Below, piece after piece: positions 21,987 through 34,802 of a stretch of 56,614 bases of DNA; position 1 is the first letter of the stretch; every line of letters begins with the position of its first letter. This DNA comes from a virus (Duplodnaviria; Caudoviricetes). The notes under the pieces are model-generated. The model saw nothing but the letters and a program-made list of their open reading frames with translations. It was not told the DNA's origin and ran no database searches. The DNA lies in IMG/VR virus record IMGVR_UViG_3300031774_000018, positions 1 to 56,614 of that record. One strand, written 5' to 3'. The translations under genes and the position numbers were made by a program.

Positions 21987-22419
21987 TATCTAACTCCTTA
22001 AAGGTTTTAAATACATCTGTTGTAAATAGTTTTTGTATACTAACTAACCACATTCTACTTGCATTATGGTCACCACCACTTACTGATTTTTTAAAGTCTA
22101 ACTTTTCTATTAGCTGTCTAAGTTTAGGAACTTCAAATACTAATGTGCAAAATATGTGGTCATCAATACAAAGATTATGAAACCAATAGTCTGCTTCGGT
22201 AGTGGTAATTCCAGAAGGTTTACCATATGATTCATATTCAATACATATGTTACCTGTCTTCATCCACATACCTCTTTCAGATTTAACTTCAATCTTTTTA
22301 TTAGTAAGCATGTTTGCTATCTTATCTTCTTTTATAGTTCCATATTCCAAATCAATATCGAACTTCTTTCTATCTTCTTTAGTGGGTTTCACTCCAATCA
22401 CCTCCAATTTTATATTCAC
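21970..22419 (-). CDS. Conserved phage protein, PD-(D/E)XK-like fold possible
   Basis: KIEVKSER...TGNICIEYES.GKPSGI..TEADYW. Confidence 0.6.
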   Translation of the reverse strand: MNIKLEVIGVKPTKEDRKKFDIDLEYGTIKEDKIANMLTNKKIEVKSERGMWMKTGNICIEYESYGKPSGITTTEADYWFHNLCIDDHIFCTLVFEVPKLRQLIEKLDFKKSVSGGDHNASRMWLVSIQKLFTTDVFKTFKELDNDQED

Positions 22420-24103
22420 CTTTTAATTCGCAACGCATATTAAAATACTCACCTGCATTTTTAATTGCATTACACCCTGATTCACCAACAAAATCTGCTT
22501 GCGATTCCTTAACTTGTATCTGCCATTCATCATGAATATTAGCTACAAACTTAGCATCTATCGCATTTAATTCTAACATATCTTGTAGTAGGCACATAGC
22601 CTTTTTCATCACTATCGCACCACCACCTTGTAATAAGGTATTAAGTGCAGCATGTTGACTTCTTACATATATCTTTCTTCCATCTAATCCTTTTAAGAAT
22701 CCTCTATTAGAAGCTTGCTGAACTCTATCTCTTAGAGTTTTAAGAGCAGGCAGGTTGGTGAAGAAAGTTTGCTTTAACATTTTACCTTTCTTAATTCCAC
22801 CACCTGCTACGCTTCCTATCTTAGCATCTCCTGCCCCATATACTAAAGCGTATATAAAAGTCTTGGCTTGGTCCCTAGTTTTAAGACCTGCTAAGTTTTG
22901 ATTAGTAGTATGTATATCCCCATGAATAACCTCTTCAATATAATCTTCGTCATTCATATAGTGTGCTAACATTCTTAATTCTAAACCACTAGCATCTATA
23001 CCTACTAATTTATATCCTTCTGGAACAGTCCAACAAGAACGACACTCCTTTCCAAAAGGGCTACCTGCATTAGGAACCTGTGCCATGTTAGGATTTCTGT
23101 GTGTCATCCTACCTGTAATAGTTCCATTAGGTATAACTCTACCATGAACTCTATCGTTTTGTAAGGCATCTATCCATGATGATATTTGTGCTATCCTTTT
23201 TTGGAATAGTAAGAAGTCTGCTATTAGTTTAGCTTCTTCAATGTGTTCAATCTTTTTAAGTGTGCCTTCATCTACAATAGGCTGACCTGTCGGTGTGAAT
23301 CTAACAGGCTTCCAACCAAAGTCCATTAAGTATTCACCAATTTGTTTACGACTACCTAGATTAAACTCAACTAACTTCTGTCTCATAAACGATTGAGTAT
23401 GGTCTGATTTTTGTATAGATTCATACTCTTCATCAGTAAGTCCTCGTTTAGATAATGTTCCATCTTTCTTTATGTAGGGTGTAACTAATTTATCATCAAC
23501 CCATTTAGGTTTAAATGTAGACTGAACCAGTAATTCTGTTTGTGCTTTCCTATCTTCTAAGTCAGCAAGTAATTCCATAGCTGTCCTAGTATCAAAATAA
23601 AATCCTGTATTCTCCTGCTCTAACATAATCTGTGCAACTCTTTGTTCTAATTGTAAAGAGTCAGGATTAAATCCTCTCCCTTCATTCTCTAAATATGTAA
23701 ATACTTTCTCATTTAATAATACATCTCCAACACAATAGTCTAACATTCTAGGTGTGTATTCTGTAAAATCTTCGGGCTGTTCTTTTTTATACATCCCTAC
23801 TCTATATCCCCAAGTCTTTAAGCTATGTCCATTTTCTCTAACTGGATTATATAACCTAGACATTACTAAAGTATCTAATAAATCTCCATCATAATCAAAG
23901 TCATATAATCTTTTTAATACAGGTAAATCAAATCCTATTATGTTATGACCTATTAAAGTATCAGCACTTTTTAATAACTCTAATCCATCTAGAATTTTAT
24001 CTGGTCCAAATTTATATATCTCACCATCTAATTCTTTCGCTACTATACACCATATCTTAGTAGCATTTAAGTCATCTGTTTCTATATCAAAAATCATCTT
24101 CAT
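22379..24103 (-). CDS. DNA polymerase family A (T7-like) with 3'-5' exonuclease
   Basis: FDIET, GHNIIGFD, TGRMTH.NPN, DASGLELR, AKTFIYALVYGAG, NIHDE. Confidence 0.97.
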   Translation of the reverse strand: MKMIFDIETDDLNATKIWCIVAKELDGEIYKFGPDKILDGLELLKSADTLIGHNIIGFDLPVLKRLYDFDYDGDLLDTLVMSRLYNPVRENGHSLKTWGYRVGMYKKEQPEDFTEYTPRMLDYCVGDVLLNEKVFTYLENEGRGFNPDSLQLEQRVAQIMLEQENTGFYFDTRTAMELLADLEDRKAQTELLVQSTFKPKWVDDKLVTPYIKKDGTLSKRGLTDEEYESIQKSDHTQSFMRQKLVEFNLGSRKQIGEYLMDFGWKPVRFTPTGQPIVDEGTLKKIEHIEEAKLIADFLLFQKRIAQISSWIDALQNDRVHGRVIPNGTITGRMTHRNPNMAQVPNAGSPFGKECRSCWTVPEGYKLVGIDASGLELRMLAHYMNDEDYIEEVIHGDIHTTNQNLAGLKTRDQAKTFIYALVYGAGDAKIGSVAGGGIKKGKMLKQTFFTNLPALKTLRDRVQQASNRGFLKGLDGRKIYVRSQHAALNTLLQGGGAIVMKKAMCLLQDMLELNAIDAKFVANIHDEWQIQVKESQADFVGESGCNAIKNAGEYFNMRCELKGEYKIGGDWSETH

Positions 24104-25742
24104 TATAAAATGTCTCCTCCTCTGTTAATTCATGCAGTCTTCCAGTTTCTACATCATACTTCAAAGAACATGCCATCCCTGTATCTCCTGTATATCTAGA
24201 TTTTAATACTCTTACTTTAGTTATGTTTGCTTCCTCTGGATTTTCTGCTTGTTGATTTCTCTCTAAAGCTATAACACAATCGGACAACTGTGCTATTCCC
24301 TGAGAACCTTTAAGATGTGAGAGTGAAACTTCAATACCTTTCTCATGTCCTTTCTCTCCTGCTGCTCTTCTTAGATGAGATACCAGTATCATTCCGACAC
24401 CTGTTTCTTCTACTAAACTTCTCAATCTATTCATGAGCATATCAATTCCTCTCCTCTCATCTCCCTCACTTAAAACATTTACTAGCATATGTAAATGGTC
24501 TACAACTACCCAATCACATTCACATCCTACTATAATATATCTTAACTTAGAAAATATTTCATCTATATCTGTAGCTCCTAAGTGAGCATGAATAAATACT
24601 CTGCCTTGTTCAATAGCCTTATCAAATAAATTATTTAATTCTTCTTCCGAATAATTATTTCTTTTCTCAGTAAGATATAATCTATCGTTAGCTTCAATAG
24701 ATACTATACCATCAGCAGTCCTCACCCAGTTTTCTTCTAGTGCTACGATACCTACATTATCCCTTGTGTTTTTAATAAGATGATGTTCAAGTTCTCTAGT
24801 CACACTAGACTTTCCAAGTCCTGTTCCACCTGTAAGAGTTACAAGTTCTCCCTTACGCAGACCATATAGTTTCTTATTCAATCCTTCCCAAGGATATGCA
24901 ATACTTTCTTTTACCTCACGATGAATCCAATCATTTTTCTGACTAGATAATTCTAAGATACCTGATGGTGTATAAGTCTTAGCTTCCCACCATGCAGTAG
25001 TAAACTCTTTAAACTTTTTCTTAACCAACATTTCGTTAGCATCTTTATATCCATTAGGAAGATTAACTATCTTAGCTTTTCCGGGCTTTATAATACGAGC
25101 AACTTGTCTTGCCCCTTCCCTACCTGCCTTGTCATTATCAAAACATAAGACAACATTATCAAAGCTTTCTACAAACTCAATGCTCTCTCTAATATCTTTA
25201 ACAGCAGAAGCTACTCCTCTTTTAATTGATACTACTGCCCACTTATCTTGGAACAATTCATTGACTGCCATAGCATCACATTCACCTTCAACAATAGTAA
25301 GATACTTACCACCTGTATTCCTATATAATTGTTCACCGAATAAACCTGTGCCTTCAAAGGTTCCATTACAGGTAAAGTTTTTATTATCAACATATCTAGT
25401 CTTAGTCCCTACTATTTCGCTACCATTAAAGTAAGGATAAATATGTTGTTTAATCTTACCATTATTATCTTTTAAAATTCTAACACCGAATTTGGTAGTA
25501 GTCTTTTTAGATATATCTCTATCAGATATGGCATCATATATACCAGTATATGAAGTTAAGAAAGTGGTTTCAGTTTTCTTAACAGGTGTTGCTGTTCCTT
25601 CTGTTTCATTTTTATAATCAGAAAAGAAAGTTCCACAACTAAAACATTTAGCTGAACCATTTTCATTTAATCCAACTGGGTCTGAACCACCACATTTTGG
25701 ACATGGCAGTTTTGTTTTTATAAATTTTGTTTGTTCTTCCAT
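24087..25742 (-). CDS. DNA primase-helicase (T7 gp4-like)
   Basis: CPKC...CFSC zinc finger, EGECDA and FDND TOPRIM, GGTGLGKS Walker A, VVDH, SHLRR, LKGS. Confidence 0.96.
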   Translation of the reverse strand: MEEQTKFIKTKLPCPKCGGSDPVGLNENGSAKCFSCGTFFSDYKNETEGTATPVKKTETTFLTSYTGIYDAISDRDISKKTTTKFGVRILKDNNGKIKQHIYPYFNGSEIVGTKTRYVDNKNFTCNGTFEGTGLFGEQLYRNTGGKYLTIVEGECDAMAVNELFQDKWAVVSIKRGVASAVKDIRESIEFVESFDNVVLCFDNDKAGREGARQVARIIKPGKAKIVNLPNGYKDANEMLVKKKFKEFTTAWWEAKTYTPSGILELSSQKNDWIHREVKESIAYPWEGLNKKLYGLRKGELVTLTGGTGLGKSSVTRELEHHLIKNTRDNVGIVALEENWVRTADGIVSIEANDRLYLTEKRNNYSEEELNNLFDKAIEQGRVFIHAHLGATDIDEIFSKLRYIIVGCECDWVVVDHLHMLVNVLSEGDERRGIDMLMNRLRSLVEETGVGMILVSHLRRAAGEKGHEKGIEVSLSHLKGSQGIAQLSDCVIALERNQQAENPEEANITKVRVLKSRYTGDTGMACSLKYDVETGRLHELTEEETFYNEDDF

Positions 25743-25876
25743 TCTATCTCCTATAGAAAAGTAGGGCGTTGTTCATATGGTTTCTAATCTACTGACAACC
25801 TAATGTCTTCAATCTCAACCAAGCAGGATTTATACTTTAAGTCCTATCCTCTTTTGTGGACACCCAATTATTTACT

Positions 25877-26101
25877 TTACTCTTCGTCAATCAAAGCATC
25901 ATCCTCTAGATAAGGTGTGATTTGACTATTGAAGTGTGCTGTTGCAGCTTCTAAGACTGCAATTCTTTTGCGTAAGGCTTTCACTTCGTTAGTGCATTCA
26001 ACAATAACACTATAAAAACCTTGTGCATCTTGATTTAGTTTCAGCACATCATATAAACCATCATCGGTTTTGTATGTGATTGAAGGTGTTTGTTCACTCA
26101 T
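25877..26101 (-). CDS. Hypothetical protein
   Basis: 74 aa, coiled-coil-like, GAGGAG RBS. Confidence 0.65.
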   Translation of the reverse strand: MSEQTPSITYKTDDGLYDVLKLNQDAQGFYSVIVECTNEVKALRKRIAVLEAATAHFNSQITPYLEDDALIDEE

Positions 26102-26103
26102 GA

Positions 26104-26517
26104 TTAAAACTCCTCGCCTTCATCAAAGAACTCATCGCCATCCCCTGATTTATATTCAACTAAATCTAGAACCTGAACAGCTTGTAAGTCAAGACTTTTA
26201 CCAGTCTTTCCTTTCCAATCCCATTCATATTCATTACATTGGACTCTAACTTTAGAGCCATTCCCAACAGCAAGATTAATGTCTTGCTTATTAGCATCAA
26301 TCAGTCTAGGAGAGTTCCTAACTATTCCATTAGGACCCTCTACTTTACGCTTGATTACTAAGCAAGGACCTTCATCCATTTGCTTTACTGTATGTCCACG
26401 ACCTGCAAAATCATCTGCAGTAGCTTGGTCTATAACCAAGTTAATCGTATACATAGGTTCAAAAGTCGTATTAGGTGTCTTGATTGAAGCCCAATACGCT
26501 ATTCCATCTACTATCAT
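26104..26517 (-). CDS. Single-stranded DNA-binding protein (T7 gp2.5-like)
   Basis: VGNGSKVRV, LQAVQVLDLVEY, acidic tail ending in Phe; AGGAGG RBS. Confidence 0.85.
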   Translation of the reverse strand: MIVDGIAYWASIKTPNTTFEPMYTINLVIDQATADDFAGRGHTVKQMDEGPCLVIKRKVEGPNGIVRNSPRLIDANKQDINLAVGNGSKVRVQCNEYEWDWKGKTGKSLDLQAVQVLDLVEYKSGDGDEFFDEGEEF

Positions 26518-26664
26518 ATTTACCTCCTATGGTATTTATAGTTTAACAAAGTGAGAGTTTTCGAGCCAACCAACTCTCAAAGTTGTGGACAGAACCAAGC
26601 CTACCAACATATAGTATGGAGATAGAGGGCTTTGTTTTCGGCTACTCATTACTTATATGCCCAC

Positions 26665-26693
26665 ATAATACTACAAGTCTATCCCTGTGTCAA
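26665..26693 (-). promoter_or_regulatory. sigma70-type promoter for the replication operon
   Basis: TTGACA-N17-TATTAT on the minus strand. Confidence 0.7.
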
Positions 26694-26865
26694 GTAAAAT
26701 TTCATCTAATTTTTCTATTTGTTTATCATCAATAAAGATTTCTACTTTAAATGTTCCATCTTTATTATATTCCACAGTATGAGGCACATCATATCCTTCA
26801 TTAGAAAGGATAGTTAATGACTCATTAAATTTTTTATAATCATCTTTATCTAATACAGCTATCAT
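26671..26865 (-). CDS. Hypothetical protein
   Basis: 64 aa, ATGA-coupled to the upstream small ORF. Confidence 0.6.
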   Translation of the reverse strand: MIAVLDKDDYKKFNESLTILSNEGYDVPHTVEYNKDGTFKVEIFIDDKQIEKLDEILLDTGIDL

Positions 26866-27017
26866 CTTCCTTGTCCTCTATATTTTTTGTATGACCTCTT
26901 TTTATTTTTATTCATGTGGCTCATAGAAACTTTCACACTTCTACCCCTGCCACCTGTTCCTTGCGAGGTGCATTTTTTAACATGGTCTATTGACTGTATT
27001 ACTTTAGCCTTCCTCAT
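26862..27017 (-). CDS. Small basic protein (51 aa, ...KKCTSQG...KKYRGQGR)
   Basis: Not in ORF track; AAGGA upstream, fills the gap, highly basic with YRGQG terminus. Confidence 0.65.
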   Translation of the reverse strand: MRKAKVIQSIDHVKKCTSQGTGGRGRSVKVSMSHMNKNKKRSYKKYRGQGR

Positions 27018-27225
27018 CTGATTTCCTTTCTTTAAATCCAAGTTTTAAAAGTAAAGGTCTGCAATAATCTACATCTTCTTTTGTCATCTTACCTACCTTA
27101 CCAATACATTCAACAGCATTATCTACTGACCAGTATTGTAATTGATTAATTCTATATTGTTGAATACTCATACCTGTAATTAGTATTAATATTATAAATA
27201 TATAATTCATATTTTTATTTTTCAT
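27004..27225 (-). CDS. Small membrane-anchored protein
   Basis: N-terminal TM segment, AGGAG RBS. Confidence 0.6.
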   Translation of the reverse strand: MKNKNMNYIFIILILITGMSIQQYRINQLQYWSVDNAVECIGKVGKMTKEDVDYCRPLLLKLGFKERKSDEEG

Positions 27226-27235
27226 ACATTCTCCT

Positions 27236-27496
27236 TTAATGTAAAGTTATATTATTATCTAACCCTTGTCGGATTAAATCCTCATCTCCTACCTGTTCTC
27301 TCAATCTTCTAAGCTCTAGAAAATCTCCATGAAAATCCCAGATGTATTGAGTATCTACTTCCTCAATATCAATTATATCTACAACTGATTTCAAAGCTAG
27401 CATATTATCAATAGCATACTGGACACTCCAACCAAAAGTTTTTAGTAGTGCTCGTTCTTGATTATCAAAGACTACTGTTATCAGATATTCCTTCAT
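27236..27496 (-). CDS. Hypothetical protein
   Basis: 86-aa ORF in tightly packed minus-strand array; GGAGG upstream. Confidence 0.6.
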   Translation of the reverse strand: MKEYLITVVFDNQERALLKTFGWSVQYAIDNMLALKSVVDIIDIEEVDTQYIWDFHGDFLELRRLREQVGDEDLIRQGLDNNITLH

Positions 27497-27752
27497 CTGC
27501 TATGACCTCCATTAACTGTTTGTAATTCTTAATATGTGGATATTTTTTTAATCGTTTCATAATATACTTATCAGTCATATAAGAATAGATAACACCCTCA
27601 GTCGTATAGACATGGGTTTGCTCAGGTAAGATGTCATTAACATTCTTAACTGTAATGTTGTTTGCTTGTTCATCAGGCAATAAAGATTTCATCCACTCAA
27701 CCTGAATAGGTTTAATCCTTTTCCTTAATTTTTTTATTGTCTTTGCATTCAT
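27465..27752 (-). CDS. Hypothetical protein
   Basis: 95-aa ORF, basic N-terminus. Confidence 0.6.
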   Translation of the reverse strand: MNAKTIKKLRKRIKPIQVEWMKSLLPDEQANNITVKNVNDILPEQTHVYTTEGVIYSYMTDKYIMKRLKKYPHIKNYKQLMEVIADEGISDNSSL

Positions 27753-27753
27753 A

Positions 27754-28101
27754 TTATTCCCATGCTGTAAATTCCATATAAGGTGTTTCTCTATGTCCTT
27801 CTGGCAACCATTCTACCATATCTTTAGCTTCCTGTAAAGTAAAAGTTGTAGCTACACTCTCCCCTTCATCATTATGTGCTAGCAATAAAGCTTTACCTGC
27901 ATAGTTCCTATCTTTAATACTAAAGTATCTTTGATTATCTATCATTAAACCTTCATCATCTATATACATATCATTTTCAATCGTAAGTCTAACACAATCA
28001 AAAGTTCTACAGTCTGTTAAGTTATAGATTTCTCTATAGTCCCCTGTATATTCTACCTCTTTGATTGTTTCATCAAACGGATTTATTAATATTCCTTTCA
28101 T
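27754..28101 (-). CDS. DUF3846-like phage protein
   Basis: MKGILINP...MYIDDEGL...YAGKALL pattern; AGGAG RBS. Confidence 0.65.
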   Translation of the reverse strand: MKGILINPFDETIKEVEYTGDYREIYNLTDCRTFDCVRLTIENDMYIDDEGLMIDNQRYFSIKDRNYAGKALLLAHNDEGESVATTFTLQEAKDMVEWLPEGHRETPYMEFTAWE

Positions 28102-28303
28102 GCTCTACTCCTTTTGCTATTAATCTTGTAAGGGTTTCCCCTATTATTTGGTGGATAAACTGGTCTGTGCATTGATATGTTTTATATTTATTCAATTCTT
28201 CCATTACACGCAGAGTTATTTCACCCATAGTTTCATCAGTTAAAGTTCTTACAACTTCGTAATCTCTAACCAAACTTTCTTCTACTGTTTTATATATACT
28301 CAT
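28073..28303 (-). CDS. Hypothetical protein
   Basis: 76-aa ORF in early array. Confidence 0.55.
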   Translation of the reverse strand: MSIYKTVEESLVRDYEVVRTLTDETMGEITLRVMEELNKYKTYQCTDQFIHQIIGETLTRLIAKGVEHERNINKSV

Positions 28304-28490
28304 TATATTTATATCCTTCCTTCCATATCTCAGGTTTATATTTAGATAGTTTATCTACCTCACATTCTTCACAGGCATGAGCTACAAAATCTCCTTCTGC
28401 ATCATCACACCTAAACATTTCTTTGCCACTACCACAATCGCAGTCTGTAGGTGTTATCCCATAACAATAATCATCCCATATCTGTTTCAT
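28290..28490 (-). CDS. Small Cys-rich hypothetical protein
   Basis: CDCGSG...CEEC, possible zinc ribbon; GGAGG RBS. Confidence 0.6.
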   Translation of the reverse strand: MKQIWDDYCYGITPTDCDCGSGKEMFRCDDAEGDFVAHACEECEVDKLSKYKPEIWKEGYKYNEYI

Positions 28491-28681
28491 ACTGCTCTGT
28501 CCTCCATCATTTCTTCTGCAATTATGTCAAGTATTTCTTCTCTATCATCATCTGGATGTAAGTCTTTTTCTAATGAAACATCCATTACTTTTCTACCAAA
28601 CTCTCTATCTGAACAGTCTTCCAGATATTCTATCTCTTCCCAAATCTCTTGCCATATCATATCATTTATATGATTACTCAT
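28487..28681 (-). CDS. Acidic hypothetical protein
   Basis: 64 aa, D/E-rich, LHPDDD.E.I segment; AGGAG RBS. Confidence 0.6.
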   Translation of the reverse strand: MSNHINDMIWQEIWEEIEYLEDCSDREFGRKVMDVSLEKDLHPDDDREEILDIIAEEMMEDRAV

Positions 28682-28838
28682 CTTTATCTCCTTTATTATT
28701 TATAGGCATCATCCAATCCAATACCTTCACCATTTGGTTAAACATTGCATCATCATACTCCATTTGTTTTTCAAAGTCAAGCCATTCTTTACTTTCTTTA
28801 TCTACATTTTCTTCCCATTCTCTAAATACTTTACTCAT
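28674..28838 (-). CDS. Hypothetical protein (54 aa, MSKVFREWEE...)
   Basis: Not in ORF track; GAGG upstream, fills gap with ATGA coupling. Confidence 0.55.
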   Translation of the reverse strand: MSKVFREWEENVDKESKEWLDFEKQMEYDDAMFNQMVKVLDWMMPINNKGDKDE

Positions 28839-29020
28839 ATTTCATCCTCATTAAATTTGAAATTCATCCCTTCCTCAATTATAAAATCATTAAGGCTTTC
28901 AGATACCTCTCTATCTTTATTGTTATATTCTAACCATTTATCTAAATTGTTAGTAGTAGCTACATAAGTTTTCATAACTCCATCATGCCAATATATGTTG
29001 TATAGTTTTTCTTCATTCAT
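28835..29020 (-). CDS. Hypothetical protein
   Basis: 61-aa ORF in early array. Confidence 0.55.
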   Translation of the reverse strand: MNEEKLYNIYWHDGVMKTYVATTNNLDKWLEYNNKDREVSESLNDFIIEEGMNFKFNEDEI

Positions 29021-29264
29021 ATTCTTCCCTCACATCTTTAATATATTCTTCAATAGAATTTAATGCTTGCATAACATTATAATCCTTTCCATTTAAATTA
29101 GTTCTTAGTTTATCAAATGCTCTAACTAAATGAACTATCTCCATATCTAAAACAGATACATAATCTTGTTCAGTTTCTGAATAATATAGTATATCATCTG
29201 TCATATCATTAGGTATAGTATAACCTAAAGTCTTTGAAATTTCAAGTGCTTGTTTTACTTTCAT
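29013..29264 (-). CDS. Hypothetical protein
   Basis: 83 aa, AGGAG RBS. Confidence 0.6.
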   Translation of the reverse strand: MKVKQALEISKTLGYTIPNDMTDDILYYSETEQDYVSVLDMEIVHLVRAFDKLRTNLNGKDYNVMQALNSIEEYIKDVREEYE

Positions 29265-29273
29265 AATTATCTC

Positions 29274-29981
29274 CTATATATGTATTACAAAGCCTGACAT
29301 ATCATGTCTAGCTTTACCCTTTGCTTTAAGACCGACAATCACATTGTCTTTATCTAAAAATCTTAAATCTGTTTCATCCCCATCAACCACTTCCCTGCCT
29401 TTAAAGTAGATAGGGAAAGCACCATTGAATACTACTGCTATATTATATGCAATCTTATCATACCATTTAGCATACTTATCATTAGCTTCTGAATAACTCC
29501 AAGTCAAATGATAGTTCTTGATATGTGATACTTTTCTTGTAGGTATCTTGGTGTAGTCATAGAACTGTATATCTGGGAAGTGTTCAAACATAGTCTTGCC
29601 TTTGTATAGTTTGTGTTCCCATTGTATATCACTTGTGCCATTCAATCTAAATGAAGGTGTTATACCTTTGTTATTACAATAGTTTATAAACCTTGTAATT
29701 TCTGTATGTAATAACTCTATGAAATAATCATAATGGTTTAAATACATATCAGTCCTACGCTGTCTAGCATCCTGTATTCTATTGGTATTTTCTCCTTTCT
29801 TAAAAATACCCCCTCTACCTGCTGTATTTAAACAAGCAGTCTTACAAGATGCTACCTCTTGATAAGGACATATCTTAGTATTGATTGGTCTAAGGTGCAT
29901 TATAGCTGTAAGTATATTCTTATGCTTCTTAAACCCTTTTATAGTCTTTGGATTATTGACTGTTAATAATTGATATGCCAC
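29274..29981 (-). CDS. Gp88-like Cys-motif protein (possible Fe-S/radical-SAM-related)
   Basis: CP-x6-C-x3-CL..AGRG, RLNGTSDI, FYDYTK, YHLTWSYSE, GDETDLRFLD, LKAKG. Confidence 0.65.
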   Translation of the reverse strand: MAYQLLTVNNPKTIKGFKKHKNILTAIMHLRPINTKICPYQEVASCKTACLNTAGRGGIFKKGENTNRIQDARQRRTDMYLNHYDYFIELLHTEITRFINYCNNKGITPSFRLNGTSDIQWEHKLYKGKTMFEHFPDIQFYDYTKIPTRKVSHIKNYHLTWSYSEANDKYAKWYDKIAYNIAVVFNGAFPIYFKGREVVDGDETDLRFLDKDNVIVGLKAKGKARHDMSGFVIHI

Positions 29982-29992
29982 AACATTCTCCT

Positions 29993-30469
29993 TTATTTTA
30001 CAAATGTTTTAATTAATGACTCGACTATTGCTTTTGCATTAAAGTCGCCACTCATAGTTTGTAATCCTAGCTCATCTGATATTGACAGTCTAACACTATG
30101 AGGTATTCCAGTTTTTACTTCATAACTAGCATGTGATGAACTATACCCACCCCTATTGAAATCAAGATAAGTTCCTTCATAACCATGATAATAAGAATTT
30201 GACTTACCTTCACTATGACACACATTAAAATCCTCGATTAAACCACTTACTTCACTTGTTAAAGCATCTCTACTGTCTTCAATACTTTTAATATTATCAG
30301 TCATATTATTTATCTCAGATATTTTCTGTAAAATAACTTGACATACTCCACTATCTTCAAACTCTTTTACAAAGTCCTCTTTAGATTTAGTTTCCCAAGC
30401 AGTTTTTACTTGTCTTTCAATAATTTCTCTATCACATACTCTCATTCCTTTACTCATATTTATCTCCAT
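29993..30469 (-). CDS. Hypothetical protein
   Basis: 158-aa ORF; likely start at the second Met after GGAG. Confidence 0.6.
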   Translation of the reverse strand: MEINMSKGMRVCDREIIERQVKTAWETKSKEDFVKEFEDSGVCQVILQKISEINNMTDNIKSIEDSRDALTSEVSGLIEDFNVCHSEGKSNSYYHGYEGTYLDFNRGGYSSSHASYEVKTGIPHSVRLSISDELGLQTMSGDFNAKAIVESLIKTFVK

Positions 30470-30522
30470 AAATTAAATTCTGGTTTATTAAAATAGGAAA
30501 ACCAGCAAAACCTTTTTAACTA

Positions 30523-30933
30523 TTAACCTAGTAATCTTCTAAAAAATCCTACTACGCCTCTAGCATTATGTCTTTCAGACATTCTAACTATTTCTTCAAA
30601 ACTTTCAAAAGCATCTTGCATGTCTAAATTATGAGGGACACTCATGACTTGCATACCTTTATTAGTTTTACCTACATTCACTTTCTTTCCAAAGTAAATC
30701 TTCTTAGCAGGGTTCTTAAGTTGTTGATATGCCGATATTTTATTGAAGTGTAAACCTAAGAAGGTCTTACCTTTCGTATTTCCATATCTATTTTTTATAC
30801 CTCGAACTCTAAGAATATTAAACCCATTCCTAGAAGCATAAGCCCATAATCTCCTTTCAAGAAAAGAAGCTTCTGAAATTGCCTTTGTGGTGGCAGAACC
30901 ATTATTTGTATAAGTTATCATTATACTCTCCAT
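30523..30933 (-). CDS. Hypothetical basic protein
   Basis: 136-aa ORF. Confidence 0.6.
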   Translation of the reverse strand: MESIMITYTNNGSATTKAISEASFLERRLWAYASRNGFNILRVRGIKNRYGNTKGKTFLGLHFNKISAYQQLKNPAKKIYFGKKVNVGKTNKGMQVMSVPHNLDMQDAFESFEEIVRMSERHNARGVVGFFRRLLG

Positions 30934-30980
30934 TTAAATTAGGGCAGTATTTAATCGCAACTGCCCAAAGCGAATTATGA

Positions 30981-31328
30981 TTACCAGTCTTTCTTAACTA
31001 ACTGGACATCTAATGAATAGCCTTCTCGCATTTCATTAAATTCTGTTATAATCTCTTCAACTCTATCTTCACAAAACGATTGGACATCATCTCTGAGTTC
31101 ATCTTTCAAATACTCTTGGTCGTCAATCATTTGATTACAACGACTTTCCATGTCTTCCCACTCATATTTCATATCGTGATTAACACTCTCGACATCATCA
31201 AATCTAGCATTCAATTCCTGAATTTCATATTCACTAGATTGCACTTTATCATTCAATTTTGAGGCAACTATATAGTTAATCTCCTCGCTTAGTAGGTTCA
31301 ACAACCAATTTTTAATAATATTTTTCAT
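30981..31328 (-). CDS. Hypothetical acidic coiled-coil protein
   Basis: 115 aa, GGAGG RBS, downstream of an early promoter. Confidence 0.6.
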   Translation of the reverse strand: MKNIIKNWLLNLLSEEINYIVASKLNDKVQSSEYEIQELNARFDDVESVNHDMKYEWEDMESRCNQMIDDQEYLKDELRDDVQSFCEDRVEEIITEFNEMREGYSLDVQLVKKDW

Positions 31329-31387
31329 ATTTAAAGCCCTCCCAGACTATTTAAAATACACTTCAACATCTTGTGTGCCGAAGTGAT

Positions 31388-31456
31388 GACAAGCTTACAC
31401 CCTGCCCCGACAGATGTCAAGGCAAGTTAAAGCTTTAAGACTACTCTTTCTTTGAT
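31388..31456 (-). promoter_or_regulatory. Early promoter cassette copy 1
   Basis: TTGACA-N17-TAAGCT (31420-31392) plus about 36 nt of upstream sequence shared with 32311-32379. Confidence 0.8.
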
Positions 31457-31467
31457 AGTTATAATTA

Positions 31468-31866
31468 CTATCTACAAAGAGCATCATACATCTCTTGCGT
31501 TTCATATCTATCATGAACAGATATATATTTACTGATTGGATAACCAACCATCTTTTCTAACTGGCTAGTGATAGTTGAATTAACTTCTGCTATCATTCCA
31601 TTAGACATTGGTCCAATTAAATTCTTTCTGTTCGGATGATAAGGTCGTAAATGAAATCCAAATTGAGGTCTAAATCCAAACATATACAAATCTTTATCAT
31701 CTGTATTCACTTCTTTTTTCCAATAGCAATCAGAAAGTTTTAGTTCACCTCTATCAATTCCATCTTCCCAATCTATTTCCATAGATAGTTTAATTTCATC
31801 AAATCCTTCTGTATAGTCAGGACTGCCATGCGTAGATTTTAGTAAGGGTGCTGTGTTAAAAGCCAT
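31468..31866 (-). CDS. Hypothetical protein
   Basis: 132 aa, AGGAG RBS; LIGPMSNG and ISVHDRYE segments. Confidence 0.65.
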   Translation of the reverse strand: MAFNTAPLLKSTHGSPDYTEGFDEIKLSMEIDWEDGIDRGELKLSDCYWKKEVNTDDKDLYMFGFRPQFGFHLRPYHPNRKNLIGPMSNGMIAEVNSTITSQLEKMVGYPISKYISVHDRYETQEMYDALCR

Positions 31867-31875
31867 AATATTCTC

Positions 31876-32019
31876 CTATATTATAATTAATGCGATTATA
31901 ACCATTACAATCGCTAGTGGTTTTAATATATACCAGTTAATTCTAAAAAGCAAGCTCTCATTTGCTTGTCTTTTAAAATCTTTCTGAAATAAAGCCCATT
32001 CTTGATATATTTTATTCAT
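31876..32019 (-). CDS. Small membrane protein (47 aa)
   Basis: Not in ORF track; AGGAG RBS, hydrophobic C-terminus PLAIVMVIIALIII. Confidence 0.55.
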   Translation of the reverse strand: MNKIYQEWALFQKDFKRQANESLLFRINWYILKPLAIVMVIIALIII

Positions 32020-32031
32020 ATTTTACTCCTT

Positions 32032-32256
32032 TTAAAATTGTTGGACAGTCCAAACTGTTCCCATTTCCATACTATCATTACTAAAAAAATCATAATTTGA
32101 TTTTAGAAAAGCATGTTGCCTTTTGGATTTGTGTTGCCACATCTCACTTCTATCCTCTTTATAATTATTCCTAGATTTATAGGAAAATCCCAGTTCATAT
32201 AGATACTGAGTAGCCCTATCATGAGTAGTAAATTTAATAACATTGTGTTTTTTCAT
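32032..32256 (-). CDS. Hypothetical early protein (74 aa, start corrected to MKKHNV)
   Basis: GGAGG RBS precedes ATG at 32256; the longer ORF would overlap the promoter. Confidence 0.65.
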   Translation of the reverse strand: MKKHNVIKFTTHDRATQYLYELGFSYKSRNNYKEDRSEMWQHKSKRQHAFLKSNYDFFSNDSMEMGTVWTVQQF

Positions 32257-32310
32257 AAAAACCTCCATAAGTTTTAAAAAAACATCATGACAACCCTGCC
32301 ACGACTTGCC

Positions 32311-32379
32311 GACAAGCTTACACCCCATCACCGAAGATGTCAACCCAAGTTAAAACTTTAAAACTACTCTTTCTTTGAT
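32311..32379 (-). promoter_or_regulatory. Early promoter cassette copy 2
   Basis: TTGACA-N17-TAAGCT (32343-32315) with conserved upstream block atcaaagaaagagtagt.ttaaag.tttaacttg. Confidence 0.8.
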
Positions 32380-32462
32380 GTTTAAAATTTGTAATATATT
32401 ATGCAAAAACTATTAAATTTTATTAAAATAAATCTAAAAATACCAAAAATCATGTAAAAATA

Positions 32463-32550
32463 GTTATCCACAGGTAATTAACAGCATATTAACAGGTAAT
32501 TAACAGCATATTAACAGCATTTTAACAGTATTTTCACAGTTTTTTAACAC
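32463..32550. repeat. DnaA box plus 11-bp-period TTAACAG array
   Basis: TTATCCACA at 32464-32472; TTAAC at 32478, 32489, 32500, 32511, 32522, 32544 and TTCAC at 32533. Confidence 0.85.
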
Positions 32551-32780
32551 ATTTGTAAAAATTTCCCTCAACCTACTGCCTGCCTATTATTTAACTAATT
32601 AACTAAAATTAATTAATTAAATCTATCTAGTTATTTCTAACTTCTGCATGCCCCCTTAAAGTTCTGAGAATATTCCATACCCCTCAAATTGTTAAATAAG
32701 TAAAAAGATATGAAAGATTACCGAGAATATCGCTAAAATGCGAACTTCAAAGCACAATTATAGCATGGAAATTGGTATTT

Positions 32781-32817
32781 AAAAAAAGCTCCCAGACTCC
32801 AAAGCCTGAGAGCTTTT
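32781..32817 (-). terminator. Probable intrinsic terminator after 32823..33095
   Basis: AAAAGCTC...GAGCTTTT stem followed by a T7 run on the minus strand. Confidence 0.55.
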
Positions 32818-32822
32818 AAAGG

Positions 32823-33095
32823 CTAGCTTTGCTTTTGAGCTATATATTTCTCTATCTGAGTATTATATTTAGCTGGAAGCTTGTTCTTACTGAACATTGC
32901 ATTAGCTTCTGCAAAAGTAAGCGTTTTCTTCTTGGCGTTTCCAAAAAGACAGCCTAATATTCTCTTCTGGAGTTGCCAGTTCATCTTGCCCTTGTTATTG
33001 GCAAACTTTAAAGAGAGCCCACGACATTGCGAGAATGTTGCAGGATTTGCTTGCTCCTCTTTCGAGAAGTCGTTTATATTAAATGTATTTTCCAT
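32823..33095 (-). CDS. Early hypothetical protein in the left arm of the fold-back
   Basis: 90 aa, strong AAGGAGG RBS, terminator downstream. Confidence 0.75.
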   Translation of the reverse strand: MENTFNINDFSKEEQANPATFSQCRGLSLKFANNKGKMNWQLQKRILGCLFGNAKKKTLTFAEANAMFSKNKLPAKYNTQIEKYIAQKQS

Positions 33096-33096
33096 G

Positions 33097-33300
33097 TTAT
33101 ACCTCCTTAGGTGTTATGGATTGGTTAATCCCTTGAATGTAAGCTTCTAGGGCGTTTATTTCGGGAAGGTTAGTTCCCATTATTCCGATGACTTTATTGC
33201 CGACACTAGCGTTAGCTCTGGCGACCTTAGAGGCATCTGAAATCGATTGAAACTCAAGAGTTTCTTTGTTTCCGAAAGTTAAGTGTATATAGTTTGTCAT
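33097..33300 (-). CDS. Early hypothetical protein in the left arm of the fold-back (start MTNYIH, near-leaderless)
   Basis: ATG at 33300 lies 9 nt downstream of the -10 box; stop abuts the next gene. Confidence 0.65.
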   Translation of the reverse strand: MTNYIHLTFGNKETLEFQSISDASKVARANASVGNKVIGIMGTNLPEINALEAYIQGINQSITPKEV

Positions 33301-33309
33301 AATAAAATA

Positions 33310-33338
33310 ATTATAATCCATTTCTTCTAGAAGTGCAA
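33310..33338 (-). promoter_or_regulatory. sigma70-type promoter next to the fold-back loop
   Basis: TTGCAC-N17-TATAAT on the minus strand. Confidence 0.7.
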
Positions 33339-34279
33339 GGTTTTGTGAGGCACGAGCAAACTTTAGACTACCTTGTTCTTATAGAAAAATAGGATTATTT
33401 TAGTTTTGTTATGGGGAACTATAGACACTATAACTTACGAGAGACAAGGGAGCTCTGCTAGTTCAATCAGGTTTCAGGTGTCTTTGAGGTTGGGAGAGCT
33501 AAACGCTAGTAGTTGGAGAGGAAGTCATCTGGAATAATGAGGGAGTAAGCTTGCTGGAATGAATGTTCTAGAAGCTTTAACATTCAAGAGGATTAAGCGA
33601 TTCATGATGCCTAAGGAGAATATAACATGAGGAAATGCGTTTGATGTATTCGAGTTCTTGATTTGTCTTAGCAAGTGAATCCTGCATCATCGGAAGCTTT
33701 GTTGTGGGCATTAGAGTTCTTGCCAATGTTATGGGCATTTGAATTGGCATTGGGTTTAGAGAATATAGGGTGTCGCCCATTAGGTAGCCAAGAAGAAAAC
33801 ATTTTTTAGACATAGAAGCTAATGTAATGTTCTTTTATCTTACAAGCTTACAATTTCTTTCTATACTCAGATTGAGAAATGTTTTCTCTGCCTGCAAAGC
33901 TTTTAAAGTAGCTTTCAGGTTTTGGAGTCTGGGATTTATTAGTGCTAAATACACACTTGAAAACTTTAATGGCTTTGTAAACTAGAATAATGTGATAGTC
34001 TTGATGAAGGAAACACTTGGTAGCACTAATAAATCTTTCATATCTTTGGAATCTTCAAAGTCTATAGAAGGGGCAGGCAGGCTACCATGCCCTCCACCCT
34101 ATATATACATCTAATACTCATACAAAATTCTACAAATCTACCATTAACTAGATTTAACAACTAGTTTACATCCCGACTATCAGGAGTTATATTTTTTAAG
34201 GTTTACTTGATGGTTTTCCAGAGTATGGAAATAAGGTTATAGCTAGAGGCTATATATGTACCCGGGAGGGCACTATGTT

Positions 34280-34308
34280 ATTATACATATCATATACTCT
34301 TTTGTCAA
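34280..34308 (-). promoter_or_regulatory. Consensus leftward promoter facing the non-coding arm
   Basis: TTGACA-N17-TATAAT on the minus strand. Confidence 0.8.
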
Positions 34309-34335
34309 TACTTATTTAAGTTTATTATAAAATAC

Positions 34336-34364
34336 TTGACAAATCTAGTATACAACTATATACT
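34336..34364 (+). promoter_or_regulatory. Rightward promoter for the late operon (leaderless terS)
   Basis: TTGACA-N17-TATACT; ATG 6 nt after the -10 box, no SD. Confidence 0.8.
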
Positions 34365-34370
34365 TATAAC

Positions 34371-34802
34371 ATGGCAATACTTCCAAGTATAAGTAACGAT
34401 AATAAAAGAAGAGAACTAACTGACAAGCAACAGTCGTTCTTAGATAACCTTGTGGAAACACAGGGGGATGCTAAGAAGGCTGCTGAATTAGCAGGATATA
34501 CTTCTCATTATCATCATGTTGTAAAGACTTTAAAGTCTGAGATACTTGAATTAACTCAGGAAGTATTAGCAAACTCTGCACCTAAAGCAGCTTTTAAGCT
34601 AGTTGAGATAATGGAATCTAACAAACCCATCCCTCAAGCTAGTAATAAATTAACTGCTGCTCAAACTCTACTAGATAGAGTAGGCGTAGGGAAGATTGAT
34701 AAAGTAGATGTAAATCATAATGTCAATACCGGTGGTATCTTTTTAATGCCCGATAAAAATCCTATAGATATAGAAGGCGATTATGAAGAACTATTGGATT
34801 GA
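34371..34802 (+). CDS. Terminase small subunit (putative)
   Basis: LTDKQQSFL...GDAKKAAELAGY HTH-type N-terminus, AAQTLLDRVG; upstream of terL. Confidence 0.75.
   Translation: MAILPSISNDNKRRELTDKQQSFLDNLVETQGDAKKAAELAGYTSHYHHVVKTLKSEILELTQEVLANSAPKAAFKLVEIMESNKPIPQASNKLTAAQTLLDRVGVGKIDKVDVNHNVNTGGIFLMPDKNPIDIEGDYEELLD

What the first reader, a model, noticed from the sequence alone, without database searches (positions are those of the whole stretch)
33290..33415. The fold-back rebuilds a promoter with a mismatched -10: candidate single-strand promoter for the first genes
Seen: the left arm carries TTGCAC-N17-TATAAT (- strand) just before the first early ATG. The paired right arm reads TTGTTC-N17-TATTTT in the same register. 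The + strand is the template for these genes, so folding yields a pseudo-duplex promoter with a small bubble in the -10, followed by a pseudo-duplex two-gene unit reaching its terminator at about 32790, where continuous pairing ends. Known: Frpo/ssi promoters in plasmid leading regions work from folded ssDNA. Inference: host RNAP could transcribe these two genes, or prime replication, from single-stranded phage DNA; the two proteins would be prime candidates for takeover or anti-defence roles.
Basis: inference. Interest (0 to 1): 0.8.

Follow-up and report, generated by a model that had tools for sequence, protein, structure and literature searches.

The report
Co-evolving kilobase fold-back around first phage genes
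In a group of abundant uncultured marine phages, the first one or two early genes sit in one arm of a kilobase-long imperfect hairpin whose non-coding mirror arm evolves in step with them, and the mismatch pattern suggests that the strand that folds is the DNA strand used as template for those genes.

Summary
Window 32790-33934 is a 1.15 kb imperfect inverted repeat (self-BLAST 69% identity, E 3e-95). The left arm carries a promoter-like site, two small genes and a terminator. The right arm is a non-coding mirror.

The repeat is not a relic. It is present in every relative that carries gene 1. Each mirror arm matches its own coding arm (13 of 13 lineages), although mirror arms of different lineages are unalignable. 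Of 88 coding-arm changes between close relatives, 51 are compensated.

Mismatches are strand-asymmetric. On the + strand, the genes' template, G.T 342 vs A.C 83 and G.G 83 vs C.C 21. The flanks show no mutational bias. So the + strand is the one under selection to fold.

A near-consensus upstream promoter (34308..34280, conserved in 31 of 31 loci) reads through both arms, so an RNA fold-back must also form. The internal promoter and the -10 bubble are not uniform across lineages.

It is not a Frpo member. Best reading (0.35): a structure of + strand ssDNA near a genome end that keeps the first genes transcribable or primes synthesis. My literature searches found no report of it.

The parts
32790..33934 (.). 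Whole imperfect fold-back (inverted repeat), with its axis at about 33356
   Evidence: Self-BLAST 69% identity, E 3.4e-95. It folds as one long hairpin. DNA minimum free energy is -287.6 kcal/mol on the + strand and -222.0 on the - strand.
32790..33339 (-). Coding arm: internal promoter, gene 1, gene 2 and terminator
33373..33934 (.). Non-coding mirror arm. It has many single-base bulges and no + strand ORF of 40 aa or more.
33340..33372 (.). Apical loop
33310..33338 (-). Internal promoter-like site TTGCAC-N17-TATAAT. The -10 ends 9 nt before the gene 1 ATG.
   Evidence: Read. It scores 9 of 12 and is not listed by the scan.
33373..33401 (+). Mirror of the promoter, TTGTTC-N17-TATTTT. It would be the non-template strand of the promoter in a folded + strand.
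33097..33300 (-). Gene 1, 67 aa, a small beta-beta-alpha-beta-alpha protein of unknown function
   Evidence: Family alignment of 18 sequences. AlphaFold2 pLDDT 88.6. No Pfam, PHROG or PDB match.
32823..33095 (-). Gene 2, 90 aa, a helical protein of unknown function, preceded by an AAGGAGG ribosome-binding site
   Evidence: Alignment of 13 sequences with 26 invariant columns. pLDDT 76. No family or fold match.
32781..32815 (.). Hairpin at the base of the stem, with an A run on one side and a T run on the other, so a likely two-way terminator. It pairs at 23 of 25 positions with 33910-33934.
   Evidence: pair I4, 92%. This is my own reading; the scan did not list it.
34280..34308 (-). Upstream promoter P_left, TTGACA-17-TATAAT (12 of 12). 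It reads leftward into the mirror arm and then the coding arm.
   Evidence: Conserved at 11-12 of 12 in 31 of 31 loci.
34336..34364 (+). Divergent promoter P_right, TTGACA-17-TATACT. Its -10 ends 7 nt before the ATG of the small terminase gene, so that mRNA is leaderless.
   Evidence: RNA-library contigs of two studies begin at 34367 and 34372 (a weak hint).
33935..34279 (-). Transcribed leader between P_left and the mirror arm. It has conserved blocks: a GC-rich 5' hairpin, a GGCAGG..ACCA block and a TTAACYAG/CTAGTTWAC hairpin.
   Evidence: Alignment of 12 lineages.
34371..34802 (+). Small terminase subunit gene, used as the anchor for finding relatives
   Evidence: Weak Pfam Terminase_2 match. 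293 relatives in IMG/VR.

Best explanation
The fold-back is a selected secondary structure of the + DNA strand, which is the template strand of the first early genes. It forms when this part of the genome is single-stranded.

The phage is an HMO-2011-type podovirus with a T7-like replication module, and relatives with similar terminases have fixed terminal repeats. The region most likely lies within 1-2 kb of the genome end from which the early genes are read inward. At such an end, the strand left single after 5' resection or incomplete lagging-strand synthesis is always the template strand.

Once folded, the mirror arm would act as a stand-in non-template strand. The internal promoter, gene 1, gene 2 and the terminator would then stay in a duplex-like form. 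The host sigma-70 RNA polymerase could transcribe that form, or use it to lay down a primer.

Shown here: the structure, its conservation, the co-evolution of the arms, and the strand asymmetry. Inferred: that the folding molecule is DNA, when it becomes single-stranded, and what the fold does.
For: 1. Conservation. The mirror arm accompanies gene 1 in all 28 loci, and in 3 more found by sensitive alignment.

2. Arm tracking. The coding arm and mirror arm of the same genome give the best score in 13 of 13 lineages: mean 333 for own pairs, 48 for cross pairs and 51 for mirror against mirror.

3. Compensation. Between close relatives, 51 of 88 coding-arm differences are Watson-Crick to Watson-Crick double changes. 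They are scattered along the stem and include transversion doubles. Ten of 455 pairs are compensated among three genomes that are 95-97% identical. Mirror-arm sites that are paired change less often (72 of 1052) than mismatched sites (19 of 106).

4. Strand asymmetry. In the window, G.T 52 vs A.C 5. In 14 lineages, G.T 342 vs A.C 83, G.G 83 vs C.C 21, A.G 169 vs C.T 93 and T.T 176 vs A.A 102, all read on the + strand. The + strand is the more stable strand in 23 of 23 folds with DNA parameters.

5. Not a mutational bias. Polarised changes in the flanks are balanced at 36:31, 113:110 and 72:63. Bulged mirror-arm bases show no G+T excess, at 0.48. The G+T excess is confined to the arms.

6. No visible source of + strand RNA. 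No conserved strong + strand promoter lies to the left. By my own reading, the hairpin at the base looks like a two-way terminator.

7. Promoter geometry. The promoter lies in the stem next to the apex, and the -10 is less well paired than the spacer: about 48% vs about 80% in 11 lineages, by my hand tally. In the window the mirror -10, TATTTT, keeps the A at position 2 and the T at position 6 of the hexamer. In L037, L061, L075 and L087 the mirror arm carries the better -10.

8. Plausible source of ssDNA. The phage has a T7-type primase-helicase, a gp2.5-like SSB and a family A polymerase. Marine genomes whose terminases are closest to those of Puniceispirillum phages have fixed direct terminal repeats (passages of PMC7111524).
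Against: - No call shows single-stranded DNA here, and the genome ends of this clade are not mapped. The window's own record is a circular-looking assembly whose ends overlap at 92%.
- P_left, conserved in 31 of 31 loci, makes an RNA that holds both arms, so an RNA fold-back is physically unavoidable.
- The strand asymmetry is absent in 3 of 14 lineages (L046, L059, L097) and in the small fold-backs.
- In L027 and L091 the mirror -10 is deleted, and in L086 it is mutated. A folded + strand in those lineages would lack the non-template -10 that sigma-70 reads.
- Many lineages show no recognisable internal promoter.
- Sister lineages and the cultured phage HTVC115P have only a 130-420 nt fold-back that lies upstream of the first gene. 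Enclosing the genes is therefore not essential.
- G.T wobbles at 11% of pairs would fit an RNA helix at least as well as a DNA hairpin.
Confidence: 0.35

Rival explanations
1. RNA-level control on the - strand. Transcripts from P_left carry the mirror arm as a long 5' leader. That leader pairs with the coding arm, masks the ribosome-binding sites of genes 1 and 2, and may block the terminator hairpin or create RNase III sites. Transcripts that start at the internal promoter lack the mirror arm and are translated. This is the logic of the promoter-inside-a-hairpin genes of phage T4 (e, 49, I-TevI; recalled, not read here), scaled up 20-fold.
For: P_left is near-consensus and conserved in 31 of 31 loci, and the scan finds no terminator before the mirror arm. 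The - strand still folds into the same hairpin, at -407 kcal/mol with RNA parameters. Ribosome-binding sites and start codons lie in paired parts of the stem. In L088, a perfect 23-bp helix at the base holds the AGGAGG just before the first gene. The base helix would compete with the terminator hairpin (pair I4).
Against: The mismatch spectrum is the reverse of what selection on this RNA would give. On the - strand there are 83 G.U against 342 A.C, and C-rich mismatches prevail. New changes that would create a - strand G.U are rarer (10) than those that create A.C (28). The flanks show no mutational bias. A 20-50 nt antisense stretch would be enough for masking. Many lineages lack a recognisable internal promoter, so the genes would be permanently masked there.
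Confidence: 0.2
2. A DNA element of replication or genome maturation, not of gene expression. That last role was proposed for the hairpin end of T7 (recalled, not read here).
For: A fold-back of variable size (130-1300 nt) sits at the same place, just inside the conserved leader, in most relatives whatever the first gene is. It scores at least 5 sd above shuffles in 15 of 22 loci without a large repeat, and it is present in HTVC115P. The replication genes are T7-like. Relatives have fixed terminal repeats. The favoured strand is +.
Against: This reading gives no reason why the stem should run exactly from promoter to terminator in the window's clade, or why it should grow over coding sequence, where every protein change must then be compensated. 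The small fold-backs show no strand asymmetry. The genome ends are unmapped.
Confidence: 0.2
3. A + strand RNA hairpin. Rightward transcripts, from weak promoters left of the fold-back or from late read-through around the concatemer, would fold into a long hairpin. That hairpin would end or stabilise antisense or late RNA, or act as a structured non-coding RNA.
For: G.U at about 11% of pairs and the tolerated mismatch types are typical of selected RNA helices. Promoter-like sites scoring 10 of 12 on the + strand lie 200-660 nt left of the stem in several lineages, back to back with leftward promoters.
Against: No such site is conserved, and the window has none at 10 of 12. By my reading, the base hairpin followed by TTTT should stop entry from the left. 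RNA-library contigs cover parts of the coding arm only, which is not evidence either way.
Confidence: 0.1
4. No function. An old inverted duplication of the first transcription unit is kept similar by template switching or short-patch conversion between the arms. Purifying selection on the genes makes the conversion effectively one-way.
For: Compensation is very efficient, even between genomes that are 95% identical, and includes transversion doubles with no wobble intermediate. That looks more like templated copying than like two independent mutations.
Against: Arm identity stays at 63-72% in every lineage, with none higher. Perfect runs in the two alignments I inspected (L046, L059) are at most 22 nt. 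Conversion would leave long identical tracts. This model does not explain the strand asymmetry or the slower change at paired mirror-arm sites. Templated copying would in any case need the hairpin to form in vivo.
Confidence: 0.07

Closest known systems
Frpo / ssi single-strand promoters of conjugative plasmid leading regions (Masai & Arai 1997; Samuel et al. 2024, PMC11541004, passages read)
   Same: A strand that is the template of early, possibly establishment-type genes folds so that -35 and -10 lie in a stem. The genes lie on the strand that would survive as ssDNA. The -10 is partly unpaired in the window.
   Different: Here the stem is 1145 nt, not 50-350 nt, and it contains the two genes and their terminator instead of lying upstream of them. 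The host element is a tailed dsDNA phage with no known ssDNA entry. I made no sequence comparison with known Frpo. The promoter features are not uniform across lineages.
Single-strand origins of rolling-circle plasmids and the minus-strand origin of filamentous phages (recalled)
   Same: These are imperfect, orientation-specific hairpins on one DNA strand. The host RNA polymerase reads them as a promoter to make a primer.
   Different: Those elements are 100-300 nt, non-coding, and sit on replicons with an obligatory ssDNA stage. This phage also has its own primase-helicase.
Promoter-inside-a-hairpin translational control of phage T4 genes e, 49 and I-TevI (recalled)
   Same: An upstream promoter gives transcripts in which the ribosome-binding site is paired with an upstream arm. 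An internal promoter gives transcripts without that arm.
   Different: The T4 hairpins are tens of base pairs, not 170-570. Here the mismatch spectrum favours the opposite strand from the RNA concerned.
Template-strand hairpin promoters of phage N4 (recalled)
   Same: The hairpin on the template strand is favoured over the one on the complementary strand.
   Different: N4 hairpins have 5-7 bp stems, are extruded from supercoiled DNA and are read by a virion RNA polymerase. No such polymerase was recognised in the ten ORFs scanned (the three largest structural ORFs and seven of the replication and nucleotide-metabolism region). A 1.1 kb stem at 70% complementarity is unlikely to extrude from duplex DNA (my estimate).
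Hairpin end of T7 concatemers (recalled)
   Same: A fold-back at an inverted repeat beside the terminal repeat, in a phage with the same type of replication machinery.
   Different: The T7 repeat is short and non-coding. The position of the terminal repeat in this phage is unknown.

Membership tests
Frpo / ssi single-strand promoter | Non-coding hairpin of about 50-350 nt lying upstream of the genes it serves | tested here: not met
   The stem spans 1145 nt and encloses both genes and the terminator. The size is met only by the small fold-backs of sister lineages.
Frpo / ssi single-strand promoter | -35 and -10 elements inside the stem, close to consensus | tested here: inconclusive
   In the window, the gene side is TTGCAC-17-TATAAT and the mirror side is TTGTTC-17-TATTTT, both within the stem. 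In other lineages the mirror -10 is deleted (L027, L091), or the -35 lies in the loop (L026, L037, L056).
Frpo / ssi single-strand promoter | The folding strand is the template strand of the downstream genes | tested here: met
   The genes lie on the - strand. The mismatch types and fold energies favour the + strand.
Frpo / ssi single-strand promoter | The DNA enters or exists as a single strand | not testable with these tools
   There are only indirect hints: T7-like replication genes and fixed terminal repeats in relatives.
Frpo / ssi single-strand promoter | Sequence similarity to known Frpo or ssi elements | not tested
   No known Frpo sequence was at hand. The phage-record search with the region found nothing.
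T4-type promoter-in-hairpin translational control | An upstream promoter whose transcript holds both arms | tested here: met
   P_left scores 12 of 12 in the window and 11-12 of 12 in 31 of 31 loci. The scan finds no terminator before the mirror arm.
T4-type promoter-in-hairpin translational control | An internal promoter whose transcript lacks the 5' arm | tested here: inconclusive
   A site scoring 9-11 of 12 is present in the window, L026, L027, L034, L075, L087 and L093. None is recognisable in many other lineages.
T4-type promoter-in-hairpin translational control | The hairpin is selected on the RNA strand concerned (wobble pairs tolerated there) | tested here: not met
   On the - strand there are 83 G.U against 342 A.C, and C-rich mismatches prevail. 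The - strand is the less stable strand in 23 of 23 folds with DNA parameters and 20 of 23 with RNA parameters.
N4-type hairpin promoter | Short stem (5-7 bp) with a 3-nt loop, read by a virion RNA polymerase | tested here: not met
   The stem is hundreds of base pairs long. No polymerase domain appears in the ten ORFs scanned, including the three largest ORFs. Not every ORF of the window was scanned.
HMO-2011-type phages (context of the window) | Large terminase and portal related to Pelagibacter, Puniceispirillum and Roseobacter HMO-2011-type isolates, with a T7-like replication module | tested here: met
   The large terminase is 70% identical to that of HTVC115P. An SU10-type portal is present. 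Primase-helicase, family A polymerase and gp2.5-like SSB are present.

The most novel reading that the evidence does not exclude
A tailed dsDNA phage carries a 'resection-proof' early gene cassette. The first genes next to the entering or replicating genome end are mirrored by a non-coding arm. When the 5' strand is lost to host exonucleases, to the phage's own end processing or to incomplete lagging-strand synthesis, the surviving template strand snaps back into a pseudo-duplex that the host RNA polymerase can still transcribe from promoter to terminator. This would be the first gene-containing single-strand expression unit, and the first use of a single-strand promoter by a tailed phage. Genes 1 and 2 would be candidates for end-protection or anti-nuclease proteins.
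Probability: 0.25. Interest if true: 0.9.

Novelty: new variant of a known kind. Interest (0 to 1): 0.8.

Why it matters
HMO-2011-type phages of SAR11, SAR116 and Roseobacter are among the most abundant viruses in the sea. Here a kilobase of non-coding DNA is held in step with two protein-coding genes, base by base, across lineages whose mirror arms are no longer alignable with each other. The mismatch spectrum also points to one particular DNA strand as the one that folds.

That is an unusually clear evolutionary signature of a nucleic-acid structure in a dsDNA phage. None of the known small hairpin devices explains it on its own.

If the folded strand is DNA, single-strand promoters extend from conjugative plasmids to tailed phages, and there would be a stage of infection at which a genome end is single-stranded. 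If the structure instead works as RNA, it is the largest known cis-masking hairpin.

Either way, it marks two unknown proteins as special first-expressed genes. It also gives a testable handle in a culturable relative: HTVC115P on Pelagibacter HTCC7211 carries the small version.

Tried and rejected
- Similar DNA in 50,697 phage records: no match. Gene 1 and gene 2 proteins against the same records: no match.
- Rfam: only a below-threshold hit to a plant microRNA precursor model (40 bits against a gathering score of 245). I take it as a generic long-hairpin match.
- Pfam, PHROGs, PDB fold search and the protein atlas for genes 1 and 2: nothing usable.
- RNA-library contigs of four runs from two studies: they cover parts of the coding arm (32945-33352), 34124-34291 and the terminase gene. 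None covers the mirror arm 33431-34039. Contigs carry no strand information and absence of cover proves nothing, so I use this neither way. One contig's loose end at 33184 is a local snap-back, probably a library artefact.
- Regional mutational bias as the cause of the G.T excess: rejected.
- A composition drive on the mirror arm: rejected by the bulge composition.
- Mismatches concentrated at third codon positions, that is, a mirror arm lagging behind synonymous change: rejected. Pairing is 0.73-0.77 at all three codon positions.
- Replacement of the central segment by recombination as the source of the double changes: rejected, because the doubles are scattered along the whole stem.
- Cruciform extrusion from supercoiled duplex: judged energetically implausible for a stem at 70% complementarity. 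This is my own rough estimate, with no call behind it.
- MAFFT alignment of whole fold-backs across sub-lineages: the mirror arms do not align. I therefore made no formal pair count across distant lineages and did not use the count of structure pairs.
- Clusters of contig ends upstream of the terminase gene: I considered these as a clue to the physical ends. I set them aside as probable assembly breaks where the conserved leader meets the hypervariable mirror arm.
- Supplementary files of the papers were not seen. The supplement of PMC7111524 may give the positions of the terminal repeats in relatives.
Full report
WHAT THE WINDOW IS

The window is an IMG/VR virus record of 56,614 bases, rated 100% complete. 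Its first 589 bases match its last 574 at 92%, so it behaves as a circular or terminally redundant assembly.

The large terminase is 70% identical to that of Pelagibacter phage HTVC115P. The next-best matches are HMO-2011-type phages of Pelagibacter, Roseobacter and Puniceispirillum. The portal is of the SU10 type.

The minus-strand block 15865-33321 holds a T7-like replication module: a gp2.5-like SSB, a primase-helicase and a family A polymerase, together with ribonucleotide reductase. The plus-strand block from 34371 starts with the terminase genes. The finding therefore lies at the point where early and late genes diverge.

THE OBSERVATION

On the minus strand, TTGCAC lies at 33338..33333, then 17 nt, then TATAAT at 33315..33310. 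The mirror on the plus strand is TTGTTC at 33373-33378, then 17 nt, then TATTTT at 33396-33401.

Two corrections apply. The -35 is a 3-of-6 match, so the consensus scan does not list the site. Gene 1 starts at the ATG at 33300, 9 nt after the -10, as the family alignment shows.

The hexamers are the tip of a much larger structure. Positions 32790-33934 match their own reverse complement at 69% identity, E 3.4e-95 (collinear pairs).

The left arm carries the promoter-like site, gene 1 (67 aa), gene 2 (90 aa, preceded by AAGGAGG) and a hairpin at 32790-32815 flanked by an A run and a T run. The right arm is a mirror with no open frame and many one-base bulges.

Either strand folds as one long hairpin. 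With DNA parameters the plus strand is 66 kcal/mol more stable: -287.6 against -222.0 kcal/mol. In the consensus fold of the window and two close relatives, the -10 has a 2x2 T.T internal loop and the -35 is paired at 5 of 6 positions.

IT IS CONSERVED AND THE ARMS CO-EVOLVE

I searched IMG/VR with gene 2, gene 1 and the small terminase.

- Of 14 loci found with the two genes, 13 show the fold-back. The fourteenth is cut by its contig end.
- Of the 80 terminase-anchored loci, 58 have at least 1800 nt upstream. Of these, 34 have a palindromic repeat of more than 500 nt at 64-72% identity, ending 330-640 nt before the terminase gene.
- Three further loci with genes 1 and 2 have the repeat at 63-67% identity by a more sensitive alignment.
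- In the 31 fold-backs I analysed (the window and 30 loci, with six near-duplicate loci left out), 29 have minus-strand ORFs in the left arm. Only 5 have any plus-strand ORF of 40 aa or more in the right arm.
- Gene 1 is present in 28 of the 31 and gene 2 in 18.
- Of the 26 loci and record pieces checked that lack a large repeat (24 terminase-anchored loci and the two pieces of the HTVC115P record), 22 have no BLAST-detectable homologue of either gene.

The identity pattern is the key result. Within a genome the arms are 63-68% identical. The coding arms of different lineages are 52-56% identical. The mirror arms of different lineages are only 36-46% identical, which is close to background.

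With one representative for each of 13 lineages, the arm pair from the same genome is the best in its row and its column in 13 of 13. Mean scores are 333 for own pairs, 48 for cross pairs and 51 for mirror against mirror.

Between close relatives there are 88 differences in the coding arm. Of these, 66 come with a change at the paired position, and 51 are Watson-Crick to Watson-Crick double changes. The doubles are scattered along the whole stem and include CG>GC and AT>TA types. RNAalifold on three genomes that are 95-97% identical finds 10 compensated pairs among 455.

Polarised single changes show that paired mirror-arm sites change less often (72 of 1052) than mismatched sites (19 of 106). 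Pairing is the same at all three codon positions. No lineage has arms more than 72% identical. Perfect runs in the two alignments I inspected stay at or below 22 nt.

Both complementarity and imperfection therefore appear to be maintained.

WHICH STRAND FOLDS

Each mismatch reads differently on the two strands. In the window there are 52 positions that are G.T on the plus strand, which read as A.C on the minus strand. Only 5 positions are the reverse.

Over 14 lineages, read on the plus strand, the counts are G.T 342 vs A.C 83, G.G 83 vs C.C 21, A.G 169 vs C.T 93 and T.T 176 vs A.A 102. In each complementary pair of mismatch types, the milder one lies on the plus strand.

The plus strand is the more stable strand in 23 of 23 folds with DNA parameters and 20 of 23 with RNA parameters.

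The asymmetry is not universal. It is absent in L046, L059 and L097, so G.T exceeds A.C in 11 of 14 lineages. In L046 and L059 the interruptions are mostly small insertions, deletions and transversions.

I tested two trivial causes:
- Mutational bias. Polarised substitutions in the transcribed leader, on the terminase side and in the left flank are balanced at 36:31, 113:110 and 72:63 for (C>T + A>G):(G>A + T>C) on the plus strand.
- Composition drive. Bulged bases of the mirror arm have G+T = 0.48, and the G+T excess is confined to the arms.

New single changes in the mirror arm give G.T 28 times and A.C 10 times. Among constant sites the ratio is 79 to 11. That fits longer survival of G.T.

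I conclude that the plus strand, the template of genes 1 and 2, is the strand whose folding is favoured.

A perfect sigma-70 promoter, TTGACA-17-TATAAT, lies on the minus strand at 34308..34280. It is back to back with a plus-strand promoter whose -10 ends 7 nt before the terminase ATG. Both are present at 11-12 of 12 in 31 of 31 loci.

The leftward promoter reads through a conserved leader, then the mirror arm, then the coding arm. So a minus-strand RNA that contains both arms must be made, and it will fold (-407 kcal/mol with RNA parameters). This is the architecture of the T4 genes whose late promoter lies inside a hairpin that masks the ribosome-binding site in early transcripts (recalled, not read here).

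The mismatch spectrum is the wrong way round for that RNA to be the selected structure. Even so, RNA masking, RNase III processing or interference with the terminator may well occur.

VARIATION AMONG LINEAGES

The internal promoter is not uniform. With the A at position 2 and the T at position 6 of the -10 required, a site scoring 9-11 of 12 is found on the gene side in 7 of 19 representatives.

The mirror arm keeps the -35, the spacer, the ribosome-binding site and the ATG. Its -10 is deleted in L027 and L091 and mutated in L086. In L037, L061, L075 and L087 the mirror arm carries the better -10. This matters because, in a folded plus strand, the mirror arm would supply the non-template strand that sigma-70 reads.

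In 11 lineages where the promoter lies in the stem, the -10 is paired at about 48% and the spacer at about 80%. This is my hand tally.

Most loci without genes 1 and 2 have a smaller fold-back of 130-420 nt at the same place: 15 of 22 score at least 5 sd above ten shuffles. These show no strand asymmetry. In L088, the base helix of 23 perfect pairs holds TATAAT and AGGAGG just before the first gene, which looks to me like a distant gene 1 relative. The cultured phage HTVC115P has a fold-back of about 282 nt in the same position (137 against 62 +/- 10 in shuffles), although it has no large one.

HOW IT MOST LIKELY WORKS

What is shown: a long hairpin-forming repeat, its conservation, arm-to-arm compensation, and selection that favours the plus strand.

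What is inferred, in three steps:

1. The only plus-sense molecule with an evident source that contains both arms is DNA. No conserved rightward promoter lies to the left.

2. Relatives whose terminases are closest to those of Puniceispirillum phages have fixed terminal repeats (passages of PMC7111524). The replication genes are T7-like. The two convergent gene arms read inward from the P_left/P_right junction. That junction, or the conserved leader, is therefore a likely genome end.

3. At an end from which genes are read inward, the strand left single after 5' resection or incomplete lagging-strand synthesis is necessarily the template strand. A mirror arm would let it refold into a pseudo-duplex that holds promoter, genes and terminator.

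I give it 0.35. The rivals are:
- RNA-level masking from P_left: 0.2.
- A replication or maturation hairpin that is unrelated to expression: 0.2.
- A plus-strand RNA hairpin: 0.1.
- A functionless repeat kept similar by templated copying: 0.07.

COMPARISON WITH KNOWN SYSTEMS AND NOVELTY

It works most like Frpo/ssi promoters. Their features, read in PMC11541004, are a 50-350 nt intergenic hairpin with -35 and -10 in the stem, on the strand that enters first. This fold-back is not a member: it is 1145 nt and contains its genes.

It resembles the T4 promoter-in-hairpin design in layout but fails the strand test. N4 promoters and the T7 hairpin end are looser parallels.

Full-text searches found no paper that holds 'HMO-2011' together with 'inverted repeat', and nothing relevant for 'pelagiphage' with 'hairpin'. 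All 15 listed of the 17 papers holding 'single-stranded DNA promoter' with 'bacteriophage' concern plasmids or M13 ssDNA production. The ISME J 2022 survey of the group contains none of the words palindrome, inverted, hairpin or promoter. Subscription journals and supplements were not searched.

The two proteins are conserved and fold with confidence (pLDDT 76 and 88.6). They match no family or solved fold. Their role is open.

VERDICT

The feature is real, is under selection, and has not been reported as far as I could search. Its mechanism is unresolved among a few testable readings.

Noticed in passing
window 34280-34364: Two back-to-back near-consensus sigma-70 promoters, conserved in 31 of 31 relatives. 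The rightward one ends 7-8 nt before the ATG of the small terminase gene, so that mRNA would be leaderless. RNA-library contigs from two studies begin at 34367 and 34372.
   Followed up: partly
window 34060-34200 and 34255-34275: The leader between P_left and the mirror arm has strongly conserved blocks across 12 lineages: a GGCAGG..ACCA..CC block, a TTAACYAG/CTAGTTWAC hairpin with a loop of variable length, and a GC-rich hairpin at the predicted 5' end of the P_left transcript. They could be a packaging site, a terminal-repeat boundary or an RNA element.
   Followed up: partly
window 1-589 and 56041-56614: The two ends of the record overlap at 92% identity over 589 nt. This looks like a circular or terminally redundant assembly that merges two strains. 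It explains why the record is classed as linear without end repeats.
   Followed up: no
window 44728-49158: A 1476-aa ORF with collagen triple-helix repeats and a C-terminal endosialidase-chaperone domain, probably a tail fibre. It coincides with a local rise in G+C to 0.49 in a genome that is otherwise 0.33.
   Followed up: no
L001 (MN698247.1, last 600 bases): The cultured Pelagibacter phage HTVC115P has a palindromic fold-back of about 282 nt immediately upstream of its first annotated gene. This is the small version of the structure studied here, in a culturable system.
   Followed up: partly
window 32344-32790: A 450-nt AT-rich non-coding stretch left of the fold-back with overlapping palindromes (TAACTAATTAACTAAAATTAATTAATTAAATCTATCTAGTTA). 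In other lineages the equivalent stretch holds a strong leftward promoter, often back to back with a weaker rightward one.
   Followed up: partly
window 19828-20421: A 2OG-Fe(II) oxygenase gene lies in the early/replication block, beside the ribonucleotide reductase genes.
   Followed up: no
window 33100-33620: In the gene 1 half of the stem, all 11 small gaps in the arm alignment are extra bases in the mirror arm, mostly A on the + strand. Over 18 lineages, single-base bulges in the mirror arm are A 90, T 45, C 21 and G 12. I have no explanation for this.
   Followed up: partly
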